From contig CAYMLG010000008.1 of assembly GCA_964391195.1 (NCBI GenBank), forward strand, positions 51,801-115,800: 64,000 nt of DNA, in the 5' to 3' direction. Position 1 is the first letter of the stretch; the number at the start of each line of letters is the position of its first letter. The notes beneath the pieces were generated by a model. That model did no database searches and was not told the DNA's origin. It worked only from the letters and a program-made list of their open reading frames with translations. The translations under genes were made by a program, and so were the position numbers. Shown one piece after another: positions 6,566 through 13,476 of this stretch. The stretch comes from an uncultured Anaerolineaceae bacterium (GTDB taxonomy: Bacteria; Chloroflexota; Anaerolineae; Anaerolineales; UBA4823).

Positions 6566-7792
6566 TTACCCCTCCTCCCGTCGCAGGGCTGCGAACACGC
6601 CTGACAAGTCAAGGTGCTGCCCGTAGCGCAGCATGCCTGCTCTGAAGATGCGCGCCGAAGCCCAGATGCTGAACAATGCTGTTCCGGTCAGGATCAGCCA
6701 ACTGGCGACCACCTGCCACAGAGGAATCACCCCCATCCCCCAGCGCAGGCTGAATGTGACGAATGAGGTGGTCGGGAAAAAGGTCAGGAACAACACGAAC
6801 GGGTGGTTGGATTCGGACATCAACATGATCACAAAGATCGGTGCCAGGAAGAGAAAGTTTAACAGGCCGGCGACTTGTTGGGCCTGCTTCAACTCGGTAA
6901 CCGCGCCGCCGATGGCCGTCATCATCCCTGCGATCAGGGCGTAAGAGGAGATGAAAAACAGGGCGATACTCAGGATATATCCCCAGGGAAGGTTGAGCTG
7001 CAGCTTCCAGTCGAAGATCCGGGCTGCAACCAGGCCGCCGACTGCGATGGTGAACAGCCAGATCACCAGTTGTGTGAGAGCCACGCCCATCAATCCCAAC
7101 GCTTTCCCGCCGATGAGCTGCTCCGGACTGAGAGAAGTGAGCAGGATCTCGATTGTGCGGTTTTCCTTTTCAGCAGTCACCACTTGCAGCAGGTAGCCGG
7201 CTGAAGTCATCACTACAAACAGAAACACGATGCTGGCGGCCAGTGGGAGGAAAAAACCGAGGACATTACTATCGCCTATCTCCCGCTCTCCGTCCATCGA
7301 ACGGATGGTGACGTCTGCCCCTTCCAGCAATCGCCTCCGCACCCCGGAGTCGAGGTCTGCTGTCAGGTTATAGCGCAGCAGTCGATCGAACTCTGCCAGG
7401 ATATCATCATCAGGATATTCATCCCAATAATAGAGGCGGACCTGGCGGTCGGATGTGAATTCCGGGGGGAAGACATAGTAAGCCTGGATCTCCACCGGAG
7501 GTACGTCTGACCCTTGACCCGCAGCCAGGGGTTCCAGAGCGAGCCGGGCGGAGGCCTCGTCGGGAAACGGGATCCATTCGAACTCGGCCTCCGGCAGGTC
7601 GTAAGACTCGATCACGCCTGCCTGATCGACAATCCCGATCGGCCGGTCATCCATGCCGGCCAGGGTGACGAATATAGTAATTCCCATGATGGCGATCAGG
7701 AACAGCGGGATACCGAGGACCCCAACCAGGAAGCCCCGGCGGGCCACCATCTTGAGGTACTCATGCCGGGCGACCAACCAGAAGTTACGCAT
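6566..7792 (-). CDS. ABC-2 type (NatB-like) transporter permease, paralogue of 5331..6563
   Basis: 408 aa with the same topology as the neighbour, and a shared EKENRT[IV]E[IV]LL[TL]S motif. 8-nt overlap with the ATPase gene. Confidence 0.8.
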   Translation of the reverse strand: MRNFWLVARHEYLKMVARRGFLVGVLGIPLFLIAIMGITIFVTLAGMDDRPIGIVDQAGVIESYDLPEAEFEWIPFPDEASARLALEPLAAGQGSDVPPVEIQAYYVFPPEFTSDRQVRLYYWDEYPDDDILAEFDRLLRYNLTADLDSGVRRRLLEGADVTIRSMDGEREIGDSNVLGFFLPLAASIVFLFVVMTSAGYLLQVVTAEKENRTIEILLTSLSPEQLIGGKALGLMGVALTQLVIWLFTIAVGGLVAARIFDWKLQLNLPWGYILSIALFFISSYALIAGMMTAIGGAVTELKQAQQVAGLLNFLFLAPIFVIMLMSESNHPFVLFLTFFPTTSFVTFSLRWGMGVIPLWQVVASWLILTGTALFSIWASARIFRAGMLRYGQHLDLSGVFAALRREEG

Positions 7793-8711
7793 GGAGCGCC
7801 TCCTTCAGCGGTGACCCGGCCGCGCCCTGTACGGTGGAGACAAAGATATCCTCCAGGGAAGGCTCCTCGATCTGGAACCGTTCGAGGCAGAAACCTTCCT
7901 GCCCGGCGAGGGCGCGGAACACCAGCTGCGGATCGGCGCCGGGATCCAGGGACAGGTGGTAGGCGCCATTGGTCCGGCGGACGTCGATCACCCCCGGCAA
8001 ACTGCCCAACTCGCCCTGGCCCTCGACAACGATCGCATCCCCCGCAAAATTGCGCTTGATCCGGTCCACCTCGCCATAAAGCACCGATTCGCCCTGGTTG
8101 ATCAGCACGATCCGGTTGCACAGGGCTTCGACCTGATACATCTGGTGGGTAGACATAATAATGGTTTTTCCCGCCCGGCGCATCTCTTCGATGATCTCTT
8201 TGATCAGGCGGGTATTGACCGGATCCAGGCCAGAGAACGGTTCATCGATCACGATCAAATCGGGGTCATGCAGCAGCGTGGCGATAAGCTGCGCTTTCTG
8301 CTGCATGCCCTTGCTCAGTTCCTGGACTTTCTTATGGCGGTGTTCCCACAGATCCAGGCGCTTCAGCCAGTCCACCAGGGCTTTCCTGGCCTCTTTCTCC
8401 TCCATCCCTTTCAAGGCGGCAAAAAAGATCAGGTTCTGCTCCAGCTTCTGATCTTTGTACATACCGCGCTCTTCGGGGAGATAACCGATACGGCGCTTTT
8501 TCTCTTCGGTGAGCTCCCCACCCAGAACAGACACGGAGCCCCCATCGGCTTTGAAGATGTCCATCATGATGCGGATCGTGGTGGTCTTGCCGGCTCCATT
8601 GGGGCCCAGCAGGCCGAATACCTCTCCAGGAAACACCTCGAAGGACACATCTCTAACAGCCTGAACTTTGCCGAAGCGTTTACGGAGTGAAGTAACTTTC
8701 AATGTTTCCAT
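7785..8711 (-). CDS. ABC transporter ATP-binding protein (NatA-like)
   Basis: Walker A GPNGAGKTT, signature LSKGMQQK, Walker B LIVIDEPFSGLD, H-loop STHQ. Confidence 0.95.
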   Translation of the reverse strand: METLKVTSLRKRFGKVQAVRDVSFEVFPGEVFGLLGPNGAGKTTTIRIMMDIFKADGGSVSVLGGELTEEKKRRIGYLPEERGMYKDQKLEQNLIFFAALKGMEEKEARKALVDWLKRLDLWEHRHKKVQELSKGMQQKAQLIATLLHDPDLIVIDEPFSGLDPVNTRLIKEIIEEMRRAGKTIIMSTHQMYQVEALCNRIVLINQGESVLYGEVDRIKRNFAGDAIVVEGQGELGSLPGVIDVRRTNGAYHLSLDPGADPQLVFRALAGQEGFCLERFQIEEPSLEDIFVSTVQGAAGSPLKEALHA

Positions 8712-8949
8712 ATTTAGTCCTGTCTGAAGGGTTAACTTATGAATGAGAACGGATGCGCGTGATAAGCGTAATCATAGCCTAAAGTTTTCTGGACGATAGA
8801 CCAACCTTGTACCCAATTTTGTGCACCTTCTTCTGCATGCCGATCATACCACCCGGGAAAAATACTGCCCTCCCTCCACAGACCAGACTTGCTCCTGACC
8901 TGCAGAATAGACACTGACCTGGTCATCAGACCAGGCCGGCGAGAAAAAA

Positions 8950-9575
8950 GCCTCCCAACCCTCACGCGCATCCGTATGGGCACGGCGGACGGATTTGCAG
9001 CGACACCCCGCACCGGGGTCGTAGGGCATGTTGCCATGCGACCGTATTTTGGTCGCCCTTGCCCGTGCCGGTGGGCGTAGGGGCACGGCGGAAAAATTCA
9101 CGGTTTCGATTTATTTACGGTGCCGCCGTGCCCCCTCCAACCCCACCCTCACCCAATGCGTGGACCCCGGCGATAGACATGTTTTTCCCCATGGAGTGAG
9201 CAAGATCGGCATCTTACCCTACGCTTCTCCATCCACATCCGTATGCGCACGGCGGAACAATCCACGGTATCGATTGATCCATGACGATGCCGTGCCCCCT
9301 CCGTCCCAACCCTCACCCGATCCACCAACCACACACGCCCACGCCACGCCGAGGTCGTAGGGCACGTTGCCATGCGACCGTATTTTGGTCGCCCTTGCCC
9401 GTGCCGGTGGGCGTAGGGGCACGGCGAGAGGGTTTACGGTATTGGTTGATTTACAGAGCAGCCGTGCCCCCTCCGACCCAACCCTCACCCAATCCACGGG
9501 CTACGGACACCCACCTCACACCGGAGTCGTAGGGCACGTTGCCATGCGACCGTATTTTGGTCGCCCTTGCCCTAC
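8950..9575. repeat. Cluster of composite hairpin repeats (REP/MITE-like or structured RNA), 3-4 units at about 170-nt spacing
   Basis: A 73-nt unit occurs at 9018-9090 and 9354-9426 with 1 mismatch, and its first 47 nt recur at 9526-9572. Long hairpins sit at 9080-9134 (12-bp perfect stem), 9247-9295 (degenerate) and 9416-9470 (10-bp perfect stem). Each is followed by CTCCNNCCCAACCCTCACCC. A remnant lies at 8951-8995. Confidence 0.85.
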
Positions 9576-9754
9576 CACACCCGCCCACCCGGCAACCCCG
9601 ACCCGCTCCTCACCCGTGAACCATAACCTCCGCCTCCCACAAAAATGGCCCTTTACTCTGCTCTCTGCGCACTCTGTGAACTCTGTGGTAAACATCTTCC
9701 GAACACAAAACCCCACCCAACCAGACACCTCATAAGTGATATACAATTACAGAC

Positions 9755-10816
9755 ATGTCCGCAAAAGAATTGGAAAAGCTGCTAACCCGCGCCTGGGAAT
9801 ACAGGCAGGGACTGCCCGAGGCGGGCGATGATCGTACAGCCCTGCGCCTGTTCAACGGCTTCTGGGAAGGCTGGCCGGATCTGGCCGTGGATCTGTACGG
9901 TGGCACCCTCGTCATTCATGGCTATGCGCAAGACGCCGGACAAAACCAGCTCGCAGCACACACCGCTCTCGCCTATTATCGCTCCGCTCTCCCCGGCCGG
10001 GTGCGCTGTGCCCTCTTGAAAGACCGCGGGGCACAGACCCAAATGCAGCGCCAGGGACTGCTGCTTGCCGGAGAACAGCCGGATAATCAAGTGCTCGAAG
10101 GCAACCTCTGGTACGCCCTCGACCTGCGGTTGCACCAGGATGCTTCTCTCTATCTGGACACCCGAATGCTGCGCGGCTGGGCGAGCGAGCACATGGAAGG
10201 AAAGCGGGCGCTCAACCTGTTCGCCTATACCGGGAGCCTCGGCGCTGCCGCTCTGGCAGGCGGGGCCCGGCAGGTAATCCAGTCTGACCTCTCGTCCGAG
10301 TTCCTCTCTCTGGCCCAGCGGACCTACCGGCTGAATGGCTGGCCGGTCCGCCGAGGAGAGTTCATTGTTGGCGATTTCTTTTCCGTCGTCGCCCGCCTCA
10401 AGCGCCAGGGAGAGCTGTTCGACTGCGCATTCCTCGACCCGCCCATCTTCTCGGTGACGGAGAAGGGGCGGGTCGATCTCAACCAGGCGGCCGGCCGGCT
10501 GATCAACAAAGTTCGCCCGCTCATCGGCGATGGCGGCCGGCTGGTGGCGGTGAACAACGCCGTGTACGTATCCGGCCGCGCTTATCTAGAGACACTCGAA
10601 AAGTTGAGCGCCAGCGGCTACATCGAATTGGAAGAGATCCTCCCCGCTCCACCCGATTTCACCGGCTTCAACCAGGGGCCGCTCACACCCCTGCCCGCCG
10701 ATCCCCAGCCGTTCAATTACTCCACCAAGATCGCCGTCCTGCGTGTCCGGCGCAAGGACGGGCGCAGGGCAGTCGCTCCTCAAACACGGCCAGGAGAAAA
10801 ATCGCTGCGGGAATAG
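9755..10816 (+). CDS. Class I SAM-dependent methyltransferase (RlmI/RlmK-like)
   Basis: 353 aa with SAM-binding motif I NLFAYTGSLGAAALAGG and motif IV FLDPPIF. Confidence 0.75.
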   Translation: MSAKELEKLLTRAWEYRQGLPEAGDDRTALRLFNGFWEGWPDLAVDLYGGTLVIHGYAQDAGQNQLAAHTALAYYRSALPGRVRCALLKDRGAQTQMQRQGLLLAGEQPDNQVLEGNLWYALDLRLHQDASLYLDTRMLRGWASEHMEGKRALNLFAYTGSLGAAALAGGARQVIQSDLSSEFLSLAQRTYRLNGWPVRRGEFIVGDFFSVVARLKRQGELFDCAFLDPPIFSVTEKGRVDLNQAAGRLINKVRPLIGDGGRLVAVNNAVYVSGRAYLETLEKLSASGYIELEEILPAPPDFTGFNQGPLTPLPADPQPFNYSTKIAVLRVRRKDGRRAVAPQTRPGEKSLRE

Positions 10817-11961: not shown

Positions 11962-13425
11962 TTGATTGGAATGAGGCCGAAGGCTGTTTTCTTCTATGCC
12001 CTCCTTGGTATCGTCTTTTTGCTAACACTGACTGCAATAGGGATCATCACCGGGCAGATGCTCCCCCGTTCTGATTCCCTTCAAGTTTTGAGGAGCCAAT
12101 CCGAGGCCAGCCCCTCCTCCGGGACGGCGGGCGAAGCATCTCATGCCATAGACGAGGAGGCGACCCCCTCGGCGACGAGCACCGCCGTTCCGCTGTACCT
12201 GGCCGATACGGGGCTGGATGTCGACTGCACCTATACCTTTCTCTATTGGCGCGAACACCCCGAATCGTGGCTGGTGGACAACATCCTCGTTGGCGAAGCC
12301 GTGTACGATAAAGCGCAGATCCAGGCCTATTTTTCGGGTGAGAGCCAGGACCCCCAGGTGCTTCTCCACCAGCAGTTTTTCGCCGCCATCCTGAACACCA
12401 TCAAAGGGGCGGATGCCAGGCAGGTGGAAACAATCCTGCAAGCCGCATCCACCTACATTTTCGCCCACCACCGGGACCGGGAGATCACCGCTGAGGAGGA
12501 TCAGCAGGCCATCAAGCTGGCCCTGGCCCTCCAGGAGTACAACCTCGGCAACAGCGGCCCAGGGAGCTGCGCCGACCAGCCGGATAACCTGATCCTGGTG
12601 GCTGCCCCTACCGCGGGGGCGCCCACCGCTACCCAGTTGGTCACCAGCATCCTGGTCAACCTGGTCACGCCCACCCCTTCGGTCACCCCAATTCGGGTCA
12701 CCGCCACCCGCCAGGCTCCGCAATCTACGGCCGGGCCGACCGGAATCCCCCTTCAGCCAACGGACACGGCTCAGAACACCCCATCCCCGAGCGCCACCGC
12801 CTCTGGCACGAGCACGTTGTCTCCCGCGCCTCCCACCGCCTCCCAAACCCTGACCCCGGCCCCCAGTTCTTCACCCACCTCCACGACCAACCCCACGCCG
12901 CCAAACACCGCCACGATCCAGCCGACCAACGTTCCCAGCCCGACCAGCTCCGCCACCAGCCAGCCAACCGCGACGCCCCAGCCGACGAGCACCAGCACGA
13001 AACGACCGACGAATACCCCCCGGCCCAGCAATACGCCGCATCCAACAAAGACCTCGCCTCCCACCGACAGCCCGGAGCCCACCAACACCAGACGACCGAC
13101 AAACACCCCTCGGCCGAGCAACACGCCCCTTCCCACGAATACCCCGGTCCCACCCACGACCATTCCGCCAAGCAGTACGCCCTTGCCGCCCACCGATACG
13201 CCTCTCCCGCCCACCGATACCCCCATGCCCACCAGCACGCCCGAACCGCCCACTACAACGTCGGAGCCACCCACTTCAACACCAGAACCTCCCACGAGTA
13301 CGCCGGAGCCGCCCACCAGCACCCCCGAACCACCCACCAGTACCCCCGAACCGCCCACAGCCACACCCATCATCATCATAATCATCACAGTGGTCGTGCC
13401 CATCTTACCGCCGATGCTGCCTTGA
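11962..13425 (+). CDS. Membrane-anchored protein with a globular N-terminal domain and a long Pro/Thr/Ser-rich repeat region
   Basis: 487 aa. N-terminal TM helix, then a 200-aa domain (DVDCTYTFLYWREHPESW ... FFAAILNTIKGAD), then a 240-aa P/T/S low-complexity region ending in six PEPPTST heptads and a hydrophobic tail (IIIIITVVVPILPPMLP). Confidence 0.7.
   Translation: MIGMRPKAVFFYALLGIVFLLTLTAIGIITGQMLPRSDSLQVLRSQSEASPSSGTAGEASHAIDEEATPSATSTAVPLYLADTGLDVDCTYTFLYWREHPESWLVDNILVGEAVYDKAQIQAYFSGESQDPQVLLHQQFFAAILNTIKGADARQVETILQAASTYIFAHHRDREITAEEDQQAIKLALALQEYNLGNSGPGSCADQPDNLILVAAPTAGAPTATQLVTSILVNLVTPTPSVTPIRVTATRQAPQSTAGPTGIPLQPTDTAQNTPSPSATASGTSTLSPAPPTASQTLTPAPSSSPTSTTNPTPPNTATIQPTNVPSPTSSATSQPTATPQPTSTSTKRPTNTPRPSNTPHPTKTSPPTDSPEPTNTRRPTNTPRPSNTPLPTNTPVPPTTIPPSSTPLPPTDTPLPPTDTPMPTSTPEPPTTTSEPPTSTPEPPTSTPEPPTSTPEPPTSTPEPPTATPIIIIIITVVVPILPPMLP
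13243..13368 (+). repeat. Six tandem 21-nt (PEPPTST heptad) coding repeats
   Basis: gaaccgcccactacaacgtcg / gagccacccacttcaacacca / gaacctcccacgagtacgccg / gagccgcccaccagcaccccc / gaaccacccaccagtaccccc / gaaccgcccacagccacaccc. The copies differ mainly at synonymous positions. Confidence 0.85.
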
Positions 13426-13446
13426 GAGGAGTGGCTAGCGTAAGAC

Positions 13447-13476
13447 ACGGGTCCTGGCAGCGCTGCCAGGACCCGT
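13447..13476. terminator. Bidirectional terminator hairpin between convergent genes
   Basis: ACGGGTCCTGGCAG-cg-CTGCCAGGACCCGT is a perfect 14-bp stem, followed by TATTATTTGATTT on the plus strand. Confidence 0.7.

What the first reader, a model, noticed from the sequence alone, without database searches (positions are those of the whole stretch)
8712..9754. One-kilobase non-coding gap filled with a composite hairpin repeat family
The divergent natA-like and methyltransferase genes are separated by 1043 nt with no convincing ORF. A 73-nt unit, GTCGTAGGGCAYGTTGCCATGCGACCGTATTTTGGTCGCCCTTGCCCGTGCCGGTGGGCGTAGGGGCACGGCG, occurs at 9018-9090 and 9354-9426 with 1 mismatch. Its first 47 nt recur at 9526-9572. 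That part contains its own hairpin GCGACC-gtatttt-GGTCGC. Each full unit runs into a long hairpin, GGGGCACGGCGG ... CCGCCGTGCCCC, at 9080-9134 and 9416-9470. A degenerate third copy sits at 9247-9295. The 31-35-nt loops share the core ACGGTWTYGRTTKAT, and each hairpin is followed by CTCCNNCCCAACCCTCACCC. Hairpin spacing is about 167-170 nt. Conservation of loop sequence as well as stems argues for a selected structure (REP/MITE-like element, protein-binding site or structured RNA) rather than random slippage.
Basis: seen in the sequence. Interest (0 to 1): 0.6.

Follow-up and report, generated by a model that had tools for sequence, protein, structure and literature searches.

The report
REP-like hairpin repeat cluster
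The 1-kb gap between two divergent genes of an uncultured Anaerolineales (Chloroflexota) bacterium holds a cluster of short hairpin DNA repeats from families scattered about 100 and 200 times through this genome, most like the selfish REP/BIME elements known in other bacteria.

Summary
The gap (window 8712-9754) holds three copies of a ~45-nt nested hairpin (module A), three copies of a ~55-nt long hairpin (module B), fragments of both, and one copy of a third module (C).

These are not a local curiosity. In the 5.8-Mb host genome A occurs 99 times and B 213 times, at 149 loci. About 98% of copies lie outside predicted genes, often in mixed arrays, and many arrays sit at contig ends.

- A starts with GT[A/G]G, the hallmark of REP elements.
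- B is a 10-12-bp palindrome, often extended to GTAG...CTAC, around a conserved 29-31-nt loop.
- Neither module has target-site duplications, compensatory stem changes, a fixed orientation to genes, or an Rfam match.
- Both are absent from 440 related genomes.
- The C-rich "tail" after each hairpin is local. It shows that this array also grew by tandem duplication of a ~168-nt segment.

The genome has two single-copy IS200-type Y1 transposase genes, each embedded in other dispersed repeat families (D, F) that share arrays with A and B. Homologues in relatives are likewise bracketed by their own repeats.

Best reading: a BIME-like cluster of REP-type non-autonomous elements. Mobilisation by a Y1 transposase is inferred, not shown. 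This is a new member of a known kind, of modest interest.

The parts
8950..8989 (+). Left edge of the array: a C-rich tail copy (8950-8968) joined to a truncated left arm of module B (CATCCGTATGGGCACGGCGGA, 8969-8989).
   Evidence: Direct-repeat families D3 and D4; sequence read.
9018..9064 (+). Module A, copy 1. A GT[A/G]G-headed nested hairpin: outer stem GGGCAYG/CTTGCCC, inner stem GCGACC-GTATTTT-GGTCGC.
   Evidence: nhmmer hit 9021-9063, E = 2.7e-14; fold; family of 99 copies.
9065..9079 (+). A-to-B linker GTGCCGGTGGGCGTA. The GTA plus the first G of module B forms a GTAG head.
   Evidence: The linker is covered by about 40-50 other genomic copies, which form an A-B composite.
9080..9134 (+). 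Module B, copy 1: a perfect 12-bp stem with a 31-nt loop.
   Evidence: Inverted repeat I2; nhmmer hit 9081-9133, E = 2.4e-12; family of 213 copies.
9135..9155 (+). C-rich tail, copy 2. It is local to this array, and with the hairpin's CCCC it forms four C-runs.
   Evidence: D3; 13 or fewer hits elsewhere, falling to 0; C-run pattern.
9200..9224 (-). Inverted fragment of the module A head. GGCATCTTACCCTACG is the reverse complement of CGTAGGGTAAGATGCC.
   Evidence: 7 genomic hits; compared by eye with the A consensus.
9247..9297 (+). Module B, copy 2 (degenerate).
   Evidence: nhmmer E = 5.5e-6.
9298..9319 (+). C-rich tail, copy 3.
9354..9400 (+). Module A, copy 2, followed by the same linker (9401-9415).
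9416..9470 (+). Module B, copy 3: a 10-bp stem, of the subfamily with A at model position 44.
   Evidence: nhmmer E = 5.6e-14; subfamily markers.
9471..9491 (+). C-rich tail, copy 4.
9526..9572 (+). Module A, copy 3. It stands alone, with no B after it.
   Evidence: Independent metagenome contigs break inside it.
9598..9616 (+). Degenerate C-rich tail, copy 5 (79% identical to the reference copy).
   Evidence: D3.
9655..9698 (+). Module C: three direct CTCTGTG words (CTCTGCGCACTCTGTGAACTCTGTGGTAAA), preceded by a decayed A head.
   Evidence: nhmmer family of 97 copies; this copy has E = 2.7e-10. Tandem Repeats Finder reports period 9.

Best explanation
The gap is a mosaic (BIME-like) cluster of short non-autonomous hairpin repeats of the GTAG-tagged REP kind.

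Two families fill it:
- Module A, ~45 nt. Consensus: cGTAGGGTAAGATGCCATGCGACCGTATTTTGGTCGCCCTTGCCC.
- Module B, ~55 nt. Consensus: (GTA)GGGGCACGGCGG, then a 29-31-nt loop holding TTTACGG twice, then CCGCCGTGCCCC(TAC).

Fragments of both and one copy of a third family (C) are also present. These families colonised intergenic DNA throughout this one Anaerolineales lineage.

Shown:
- The families are dispersed, intergenic and restricted to this lineage.
- They carry GTAG heads and lack target-site duplications.
- This array also grew by local tandem duplication of a ~168-nt block (B, C-rich tail, spacer, with or without A).

Inferred:
- Copies spread as single-stranded hairpins that are cut at the GTAG head and re-inserted by a Y1 (HUH) transposase of the IS200/IS605 superfamily, as established for E. 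coli REPs and their RAYT.
- The genome's two single-copy Y1 genes, each embedded in related repeat families, are the candidate enzymes.
- The array sits between the two divergent promoter regions, where insertions are tolerated. Any effect on the ABC-transporter operon or the methyltransferase gene would be a by-product.
For: - **Copy number.** A has 99 copies on 47 contigs and B has 213 copies on 84 contigs, at 149 loci. Arrays hold up to 10 modules.
- **Location.** 98% of copies lie outside predicted CDS, against 15% expected for random 53-mers. The median host intergenic length is 699 nt, against 72 nt genome-wide.
- **GTAG heads.** The A head reads G, T, A (65) or G (14), G in essentially all aligned copies. 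B is flanked by GTAG on the 5' side in about half of copies and by CTAC on the 3' side in 75 of 134.
- **No target-site duplication** above a shuffled control.
- **Stable folds**.
- **Constraint on stems.** Inner stem columns are 95-99% invariant, whereas loop columns carry 10-40% variants and define subfamilies.
- **Local growth.** Within-array copies are more alike than copies from different arrays. The tail is local only.
- **Independent assemblies.** Metagenome assemblies from sludge, digester, soil and compost tile the same array and break only inside A copies. Word depth at A is about 56 times that of the flank.
- **Lineage restriction.** There is no match in 40 relatives, in 400 genomes of the order, or in an exact-word scan of 185,579 species.
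- **Candidate enzymes.** Two single-copy PF01797 Y1 genes are present. One is bracketed by GTAG-tagged family D and the other abuts family F. D and F both share arrays with A and B.
- **Relatives.** Y1 homologues in relatives G001, G003 and G005 are bracketed by their own hairpin repeats. In G001 those repeats are dispersed, with 23 hits.
- **Literature.** GTAG REPs, clusters, REPtrons and TIRtrons are described in PMC3733652 (which reports GTAG repeats in Chloroflexi) and PMC2817692.
Against: - Neither Y1 gene is flanked by A or B themselves.
- Both Y1 proteins score as IS200/IS605 transposases (72 bits, cut-off 55). They fall below the cut-off of the NCBIfam RAYT model (24-26 bits, cut-off 80) and match IS200-type structures, not the E. 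coli RAYT.
- Same-type neighbours in arrays are almost always direct (B-B: 67 direct, 3 inverted; A-A: 15 direct, 0 inverted). Classical BIMEs alternate orientation.
- There is no preference for gene 3' ends or convergent gaps.
- There is no orientation bias against GC skew.
- The B loop (29-31 nt) is longer than the 2-20 nt reported for GTAG REPs.
- No insertion polymorphism or empty site could be shown. The strains found in metagenomes are nearly identical, and relatives are too distant for comparison.
Confidence: 0.7

Rival explanations
1. Host-selected structural elements. The hairpins would be kept because they serve the cell, either as RNA stem-loops that stabilise or insulate transcripts, or as DNA binding sites for nucleoid or topology proteins, as proposed for E. 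coli REP/BIME. How they arose would be secondary.
For: - Inner stems are far better conserved than loops despite about 15% overall divergence of B copies.
- A position 7 varies T/C opposite an invariant G, which keeps a G-U or G-C pair only on the plus-sense strand.
- The B loop holds a conserved tandem TTTACGG word that could bind a protein.
Against: - Orientation relative to flanking genes is not fixed (B: 24 same, 40 opposite; A: 20 same, 13 opposite) and there is no 3'-end preference.
- The families are absent from the same-genus genome and from 440 relatives, so no conserved cellular role depends on them.
- There are no compensatory changes.
- No RNA data exist.
Confidence: 0.15
2. Miniature inverted-repeat transposable elements (MITEs). 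Module B would be a 55-nt deletion derivative of an insertion sequence, moved in trans by a DDE transposase that recognises its 12-15-bp terminal inverted repeats.
For: The B arms are perfect terminal inverted repeats that are almost invariant. Variants with the same arms but unrelated loops exist at C7:100413, C3:28520 and C29:41984.
Against: - No target-site duplication beyond the shuffled control, for B or A.
- No pair of B arms enclosing a transposase-sized segment turned up in a partial check: occurrences of the arm word outside B copies were listed and a few inspected, and those were short hairpins.
- GTAG/CTAC tags point to the Y1/REP world.
- A has no terminal inverted repeats.
Confidence: 0.07
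3. A family of small structured RNA genes, either trans-acting sRNAs or element-borne guide-like RNAs. The conserved B loop or the A internal loop would be the functional single-stranded part.
For: The folds are stable with conserved unpaired segments: A internal loop ATGCCAT and hairpin loop GTATTTT are at least 90% conserved, and B loop positions 23 and 34 are nearly invariant.
Against: - No Rfam family matches (best E = 0.076, far below gathering score).
- No promoter-like sites were found in the gap.
- Copies lie on both strands without relation to genes.
- There is no covariation.
- The families are restricted to one lineage.
- No transcript data are available.
Confidence: 0.05
4. A purely local duplication or slippage product without any wider family.
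For: The C-rich tails and spacers are local, and the array has a ~168-nt period.
Against: A and B occur at 148 other loci on most contigs. Independent assemblies confirm the high copy depth.
Confidence: 0.01

Closest known systems
GTAG-tagged REP elements and their clusters (BIMEs) with RAYT / REPtron units (Nunvar 2010, PMC2817692; Di Nocera 2013, PMC3733652; E. coli TnpA-REP work cited there)
   Same: - Short imperfect palindromes with a GT[A/G]G head.
- About 100-200 copies, extragenic, several families per genome, clustered into mosaics.
- No target-site duplications and a species-restricted distribution.
- Single-copy Y1 transposase genes embedded in such repeats in the same genome and in relatives.
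   Different: - No Y1 gene is flanked by A or B themselves.
- The Y1 proteins are IS200-like by sequence, not of the gammaproteobacterial RAYT clade.
- Repeats flank the Y1 genes in direct, not inverted, orientation.
- Arrays hold same-type modules in direct orientation rather than alternating.
- There is no 3'-end preference.
- The B loop is 29-31 nt, beyond the reported 2-20 nt.
REPINs (REP doublets forming hairpins; Bertels and Rainey 2011, PMC3116915)
   Same: B is a symmetric long hairpin whose two arms often carry GTAG at the outer ends, like two inverted REP heads around a spacer. Copies form a cloud of variants around master sequences.
   Different: Each B arm (15 nt) has no palindrome of its own. 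The cognate RAYT of REPIN groups 2/3 is not present. Population dynamics were not tested.
TIR repeat families and TIRtrons/TIRYTs (Di Nocera 2013, PMC3733652)
   Same: Moderately abundant repeat families that are long inverted repeats. Y1 transposase genes are flanked by lineage-specific repeats that are sometimes only local, as in relatives G003 and G005.
   Different: B carries GTAG tags, which TIR families were described as lacking. No Y1 gene lies between B arms.
MITEs such as Correia/NEMIS, RUP and ERIC
   Same: Small, non-coding, dispersed elements with terminal inverted repeats (B) and hairpin potential, found intergenically.
   Different: No target-site duplication, no related full-length IS, much shorter (45-55 nt), and GTAG heads.

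Membership tests
REP (GTAG-tagged superfamily) | Short imperfect palindrome able to form a stem-loop | tested here: met
   A folds at -19.6 kcal/mol (z = -3.6) and B at -31.5 kcal/mol (z = -4.5). Stem cells are 95-100% paired.
REP (GTAG-tagged superfamily) | GT[A/G]G head at one end | tested here: met
   A model positions 1-4 read G (73/73), T (76/76), A 65 / G 14, G (88/90). B has GTAG on the 5' side in about half of copies and CTAC on the 3' side in 75 of 134, so the match for B is only partial.
REP (GTAG-tagged superfamily) | High copy number, dispersed, extragenic | tested here: met
   99 and 213 copies at 149 loci. 98% lie outside crude CDS calls, against 15% expected.
REP (GTAG-tagged superfamily) | Cognate RAYT gene flanked by the same REPs (REPtron) | tested here: not met
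   The two PF01797 genes are flanked by families D and F, not by A or B. The assembly is fragmented, so a further gene could be missing.
REP (GTAG-tagged superfamily) | Preferential location downstream of genes or in convergent gaps | tested here: not met
   Flank contexts: 52 co-directional, 21 divergent, 14 convergent. Divergent gaps are over-represented relative to background.
BIME | Clusters of REPs in regularly alternating orientation with defined linkers | tested here: not met
   Clusters exist, but same-type neighbours are direct (B-B 67:3, A-A 15:0). A fixed A-B linker occurs in only about 40 copies.
RAYT (REP-associated tyrosine transposase), for the two Y1 genes | Sequence membership in the RAYT clade | tested here: not met
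   NF047646 scores 24-26 bits (cut-off 80), while NF033573 IS200/IS605 scores 72 bits (cut-off 55). PDB hits are IS200-type TnpA only.
RAYT (REP-associated tyrosine transposase), for the two Y1 genes | Single copy per genome and flanked by dispersed hairpin repeats | tested here: met
   There are two different genes, one copy each. One is flanked by dispersed family D, the other by family F. Homologues in G001, G003 and G005 are likewise flanked. The flanking copies are direct, not inverted.
REPIN | Two REPs in inverted orientation forming one long hairpin, replicated as a unit | tested here: inconclusive
   B is symmetric with GTAG...CTAC in about half of copies, but its arms are not palindromes themselves. 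Replication as a unit is not testable here.
MITE | Terminal inverted repeats plus target-site duplication and a related autonomous IS | tested here: not met
   B has terminal inverted repeats. There is no duplication above the shuffled control, and no IS bounded by B arms was seen in a partial check of arm-word occurrences outside B copies.
Known structured RNA (Rfam 15) | Match to a covariance model at gathering score | tested here: not met
   The best matches are mir-55 at 23 bits (gathering score 53) and twister-sister at 20 bits (gathering score 34). These are chance-level.

The most novel reading that the evidence does not exclude
Anaerolineales may carry their own long-lived repeat-plus-enzyme system. 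In it, single-copy IS200-type Y1 transposases, not the RAYT clade, would be vertically inherited. The C43 gene has a 57%-identical, repeat-bracketed homologue in the same genus. These enzymes would drive many co-resident GTAG-tagged hairpin families (A, B, D and others) that turn over completely between species and assemble into direct-orientation mosaics. The recurring GGGCACG word next to GTAG in A, B and D would be the shared recognition signal. The long conserved B loop, with its tandem TTTACGG, would be a second protein-binding module.
Probability: 0.25. Interest if true: 0.5.

Novelty: new member of a known kind. Interest (0 to 1): 0.3.

Why it matters
REP-type elements are well studied in Proteobacteria but barely described in Chloroflexota. 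This genome holds several GTAG-headed hairpin families (A, B, D and a 71-copy family) among many short repeat families, plus two single-copy IS200-like Y1 genes embedded in such repeats.

That makes it a compact case for asking whether domesticated Y1 transposases outside the RAYT clade also maintain REP populations.

There is a practical side too. These repeats break short-read assemblies of this lineage: 58 of 149 repeat loci lie within 600 nt of a contig end. They also inflate intergenic gaps, which should not be mistaken for missing genes or regulatory RNAs.

Tried and rejected
- **Rfam scan of the gap at permissive E-values.** Only chance-level miRNA and ribozyme hits.
- **Exact-word scans for the A core.** No hits in 185,579 species genomes or in JGI metagenome contigs. 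The host genome's own records may be left out of those collections.
- **BLAST of the A and B consensus.** Nothing in 40 relatives or in 400 genomes of the order.
- **Empty-site comparison.** The methyltransferase has no orthologue in the same-genus genome, and other relatives are at most 57% identical, so intergenic regions cannot be compared.
- **Strain polymorphism.** Metagenome contigs from four studies show the same array and no precise-excision joints. The strains differ by at most 2 SNPs in 549 nt, so this test is uninformative.
- **RNA evidence.** No RNA run holds the sequence.
- **Target-site duplications.** None above control.
- **Orientation against GC skew.** No bias, but skew itself does not track gene strand here, so the test is weak.
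- **Extending the contig upstream of the C89 Y1 gene.** Exact-protein look-up was not on record for two candidate start codons.
- **Promoter scan of the gap.** No sigma-70-like sites. The "terminator" hits are just a 5-bp stem inside module A followed by its own T-rich hairpin loop (GTATTTT).
- **Apparent intragenic copies.** Nearly all are artefacts of over-long ORF calls or overlap only the last codons.
- **Formal covariation tool.** Not run. Direct pair counts showed only 4 double-sided changes among roughly 1,500 stem cells.

Full report
**Observation.** The region 8712-9754 is a gene-free gap. It lies between a minus-strand ABC ATPase (7785-8711; PF00005 plus the DrrA-type C-terminal domain, followed by two ABC-2 permeases) and a plus-strand SAM-dependent methyltransferase (9755-10816; PF10672).
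- One correction: the third hairpin (9416-9470) has a 10-bp stem, not a 12-bp stem.
- The consensus hairpins fold far better than shuffled sequence. A gives -19.6 kcal/mol (z = -3.6) and B gives -31.5 kcal/mol (z = -4.5).

**Genome-wide census.** The window is contig C8:51801-115800 of a 5.8-Mb, 199-contig, 61% G+C assembly.
- Iterated nhmmer searches on the whole genome find 99 copies of module A on 47 contigs. Its 43-nt model consensus is GTAGGGTAAGATGCCATGCGACCGTATTTTGGTCGCCCTTGCC.
- They find 213 copies of module B on 84 contigs. Its 53-nt model consensus is GGGCACGGCGGGAGGGTTTACGGTTTCGGGTGATTTACGGTGCCGCCGTGCCC.
- Both strands are hit equally.
- The copies group into 149 loci: 79 single copies and 70 arrays of 2-10 modules. 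58 loci lie within 600 nt of a contig end.
- A BLAST coverage profile of the gap shows which parts are dispersed: A, B, the 15-nt A-to-B linker (about 40-50 copies), an inverted A-head fragment at 9200-9224, and a third module at about 9655-9698.
- The C-rich tail and the spacers are essentially unique to this locus.
- That third module, C, has 97 copies. It consists of three direct CTCTGTG words and often abuts the GTAG end of an inverted A.

**Anatomy.**
- A begins with G-T-(A 65 / G 14)-G, the GT[A/G]G head that defines REPs. Then come an outer 7-bp stem (GGGYAWG/CTTGCCC), an asymmetric internal loop (ATGCCAT), a 6-7-bp inner stem (GCGACC/GGTCGC) and a GTATTTT loop.
- B is a 10-12-bp G+C-rich palindrome. 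GTAG precedes it in about half of copies and CTAC follows it in 75 of 134, so the full element reads GTAGGGGCACGGCGG...CCGCCGTGCCCCTAC.
- The 29-31-nt B loop carries TTTACGG twice.
- Inner stem columns are 95-99% invariant, while loop columns carry 10-40% variants.
- The strongest column correlations mark subfamilies, not base pairs. B positions 11/44 are T with C, or G with A. A positions 7/9/11 co-vary.
- Only four stem cells out of roughly 1,500 show double-sided changes, so there is no covariation support for a selected RNA fold.
- Hairpins with B arms but unrelated loops also exist.

**How this array was built.**
- The order of elements is: tail and truncated B arm (8950-8989), A, linker, B, tail, inverted A fragment, B, tail, A, linker, B, tail, A, tail remnant, C.
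- The five tails (8950, 9137, 9301, 9473, 9598) and the 84% and 80% identical 161-167-nt direct repeats show local tandem duplication of a ~168-nt block, on top of whatever brought A and B here.
- Genome-wide, copies within an array are more alike than copies in different arrays. For A the values are 92.5% and 86.8%; for B they are 80.1% and 76.3%.
- Same-type neighbours are almost always in direct orientation (B-B 67:3; A-A 15:0), whereas A and B pair in all four orientations.

**Context.** These figures rest on a crude in-house gene caller (4,491 genes, 86.5% coding).
- 98% of copies lie outside CDS, against 15% expected for random 53-mers.
- Host gaps have a median length of 699 nt, against 72 nt genome-wide.
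- Flanking genes are co-directional at 52 loci, divergent at 21 and convergent at 14. There is therefore no 3'-end preference, and no fixed orientation relative to transcription.
- Neither family shows target-site duplications above a shuffled control.
- Orientation does not follow local GC skew.
- Nearly all apparent intragenic overlaps are ORF-end effects.

**Independent support and host identity.**
- Exact-protein look-ups of both flanking genes recover contigs from unrelated public metagenome runs (SRR31189352-57, SRR9016293-98, SRR15327641). These contigs end inside A copies, at about window 9048 and 9544.
- Contigs from sludge, digester, soil and compost runs tile the whole gap without differences. 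Word depth at A is about 56 times that of the flank.
- The array is therefore not an assembly artefact, although short reads cannot verify its exact copy number.
- The N-terminal half of RpoB is 84-88% identical to Anaerolineales and Anaerolinea MAGs. The host is an uncultured Anaerolineales bacterium (Chloroflexota).
- No RNA run holds the sequence.

**Distribution.**
- The 24-nt A core has no exact match in 185,579 species genomes or in JGI metagenome contigs.
- The A and B consensus sequences give no hit in 40 relatives, including the same-genus genome, or in 400 genomes from 124 genera of the order.
- Modules C and D do occur at low copy number in a few other families of the order.
- A and B are therefore young and lineage-restricted, which is typical of REP families.

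**Candidate enzymes.**
- The genome has exactly two PF01797 Y1 transposase genes, each in one copy.
- Both score as IS200/IS605 transposases and fall below the cut-off of the RAYT model. In the PDB they match IS200-type TnpA structures only.
- The C43 gene has two copies of family D upstream and one downstream. D contains GTAG-CC-GCGACT-TC-AGTCGC on its minus strand plus a second palindrome, and has about 20 copies.
- The C89 gene starts 2 nt after the end of a ~150-nt composite repeat, F, which has 14-35 copies.
- D and F both occur next to A/B arrays.
- Homologues of the C43 protein in G001 (same genus, 57% identity), G003 and G005 are also bracketed, in direct orientation, by their own hairpin repeats.
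- The G001 repeats are dispersed (23 hits), whereas those of G003 and G005 are local to the Y1 locus.
- A k-mer census shows many further short families in this genome. Several are classic GTAG-plus-palindrome units, such as CGTAGCGCAAGATGCCAATCTTGCGGC with 71 copies.
- As a lead only: the word GGGCACG sits next to GTAG or CTAC in A (this window's variant), B and D, and the A inner stem GCGACC/GGTCGC resembles the D stem GCGACT/AGTCGC.

**Interpretation.**
- The defining features of GTAG-tagged REPs are met for A and largely for B. These are a short palindrome, a GT[A/G]G head, high copy number, extragenic location, clustering, several families per genome, and Y1 transposase genes embedded in such repeats (PMC2817692, PMC3733652).
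- Some features are not met. There is no Y1 gene flanked by A or B themselves, no RAYT-clade membership of the enzymes, no alternating BIME orientation and no 3'-end bias.
- I therefore file this as a REP-like, BIME-like cluster, a new member of a known kind. Mobilisation by a Y1 transposase is inferred, not shown.
- The rivals are less likely for the reasons listed under each one: host-selected hairpins, DDE-type MITEs and sRNA genes. The purely local-duplication null is refuted.
- Earlier notes of this scan on other Anaerolineales genomes describe similar hairpin repeats. They agree with this reading but are not independent evidence.

Noticed in passing
window 9655-9698: Module C is a separate dispersed family of about 97 copies, made of three direct CTCTGTG words (consensus CTCTCTGTGTTCTCTGTGAACTCTGTGGTGAAA). 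It often abuts the GTAG end of an inverted A copy. It has no fixed orientation or distance to genes. It is also present at low copy number in other families of the order.
   Followed up: partly
window 8749-8762 and 8962-8975: A perfect 14-nt inverted repeat (ACGGATGCGCGTGA / TCACGCGCATCCGT) encloses the 199-nt unique region upstream of the ABC operon. The 14-mer occurs nowhere else in the genome. Its right arm overlaps the left edge of the repeat array. Its function is unexplained.
   Followed up: partly
window 9131-9154, 9295-9318, 9467-9490, 9564-9604: The array spacers are strongly C-rich on the plus strand (for example 34 C against 7 G). Each B hairpin runs into four C-runs, which is a G-quadruplex motif on the minus strand or an i-motif on the plus strand. 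This is local and not a genome-wide property of B flanks.
   Followed up: partly
genome contig C43:5000-5800 (outside the window): A single-copy IS200-type Y1 transposase gene (128 aa) has two copies of dispersed GTAG-tagged family D upstream and one downstream, all in the same orientation. A 57%-identical homologue in the same-genus genome is bracketed by a different, also dispersed, repeat.
   Followed up: partly
genome contig C89:1-522 (outside the window): A second Y1 transposase gene starts 2 nt after a ~150-nt composite four-hairpin repeat (family F, 14-35 copies). The contig ends inside that repeat.
   Followed up: partly
whole genome (k-mer census): There are many further short repeat families. 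Examples are CGTAGCGCAAGATGCCAATCTTGCGGC (71 copies; a classic GTAG plus 8-bp palindrome), GTAGGGGCGGGTC... (about 30) and TCAGCAATCCGTGAAATCCGTGACAAAA (32).
   Followed up: no
genome contig C9:29501-29553 (outside the window): One B copy lies inside a 1,506-aa PKS/NRPS-like ORF, in the linker after a carrier-protein-like segment. It may be an in-frame intragenic copy.
   Followed up: no
window 11962-13425: The 487-aa plus-strand ORF has no Pfam match. A codon-usage score prefers a minus-strand ORF at 12771-13448, so the gene call here is uncertain.
   Followed up: no
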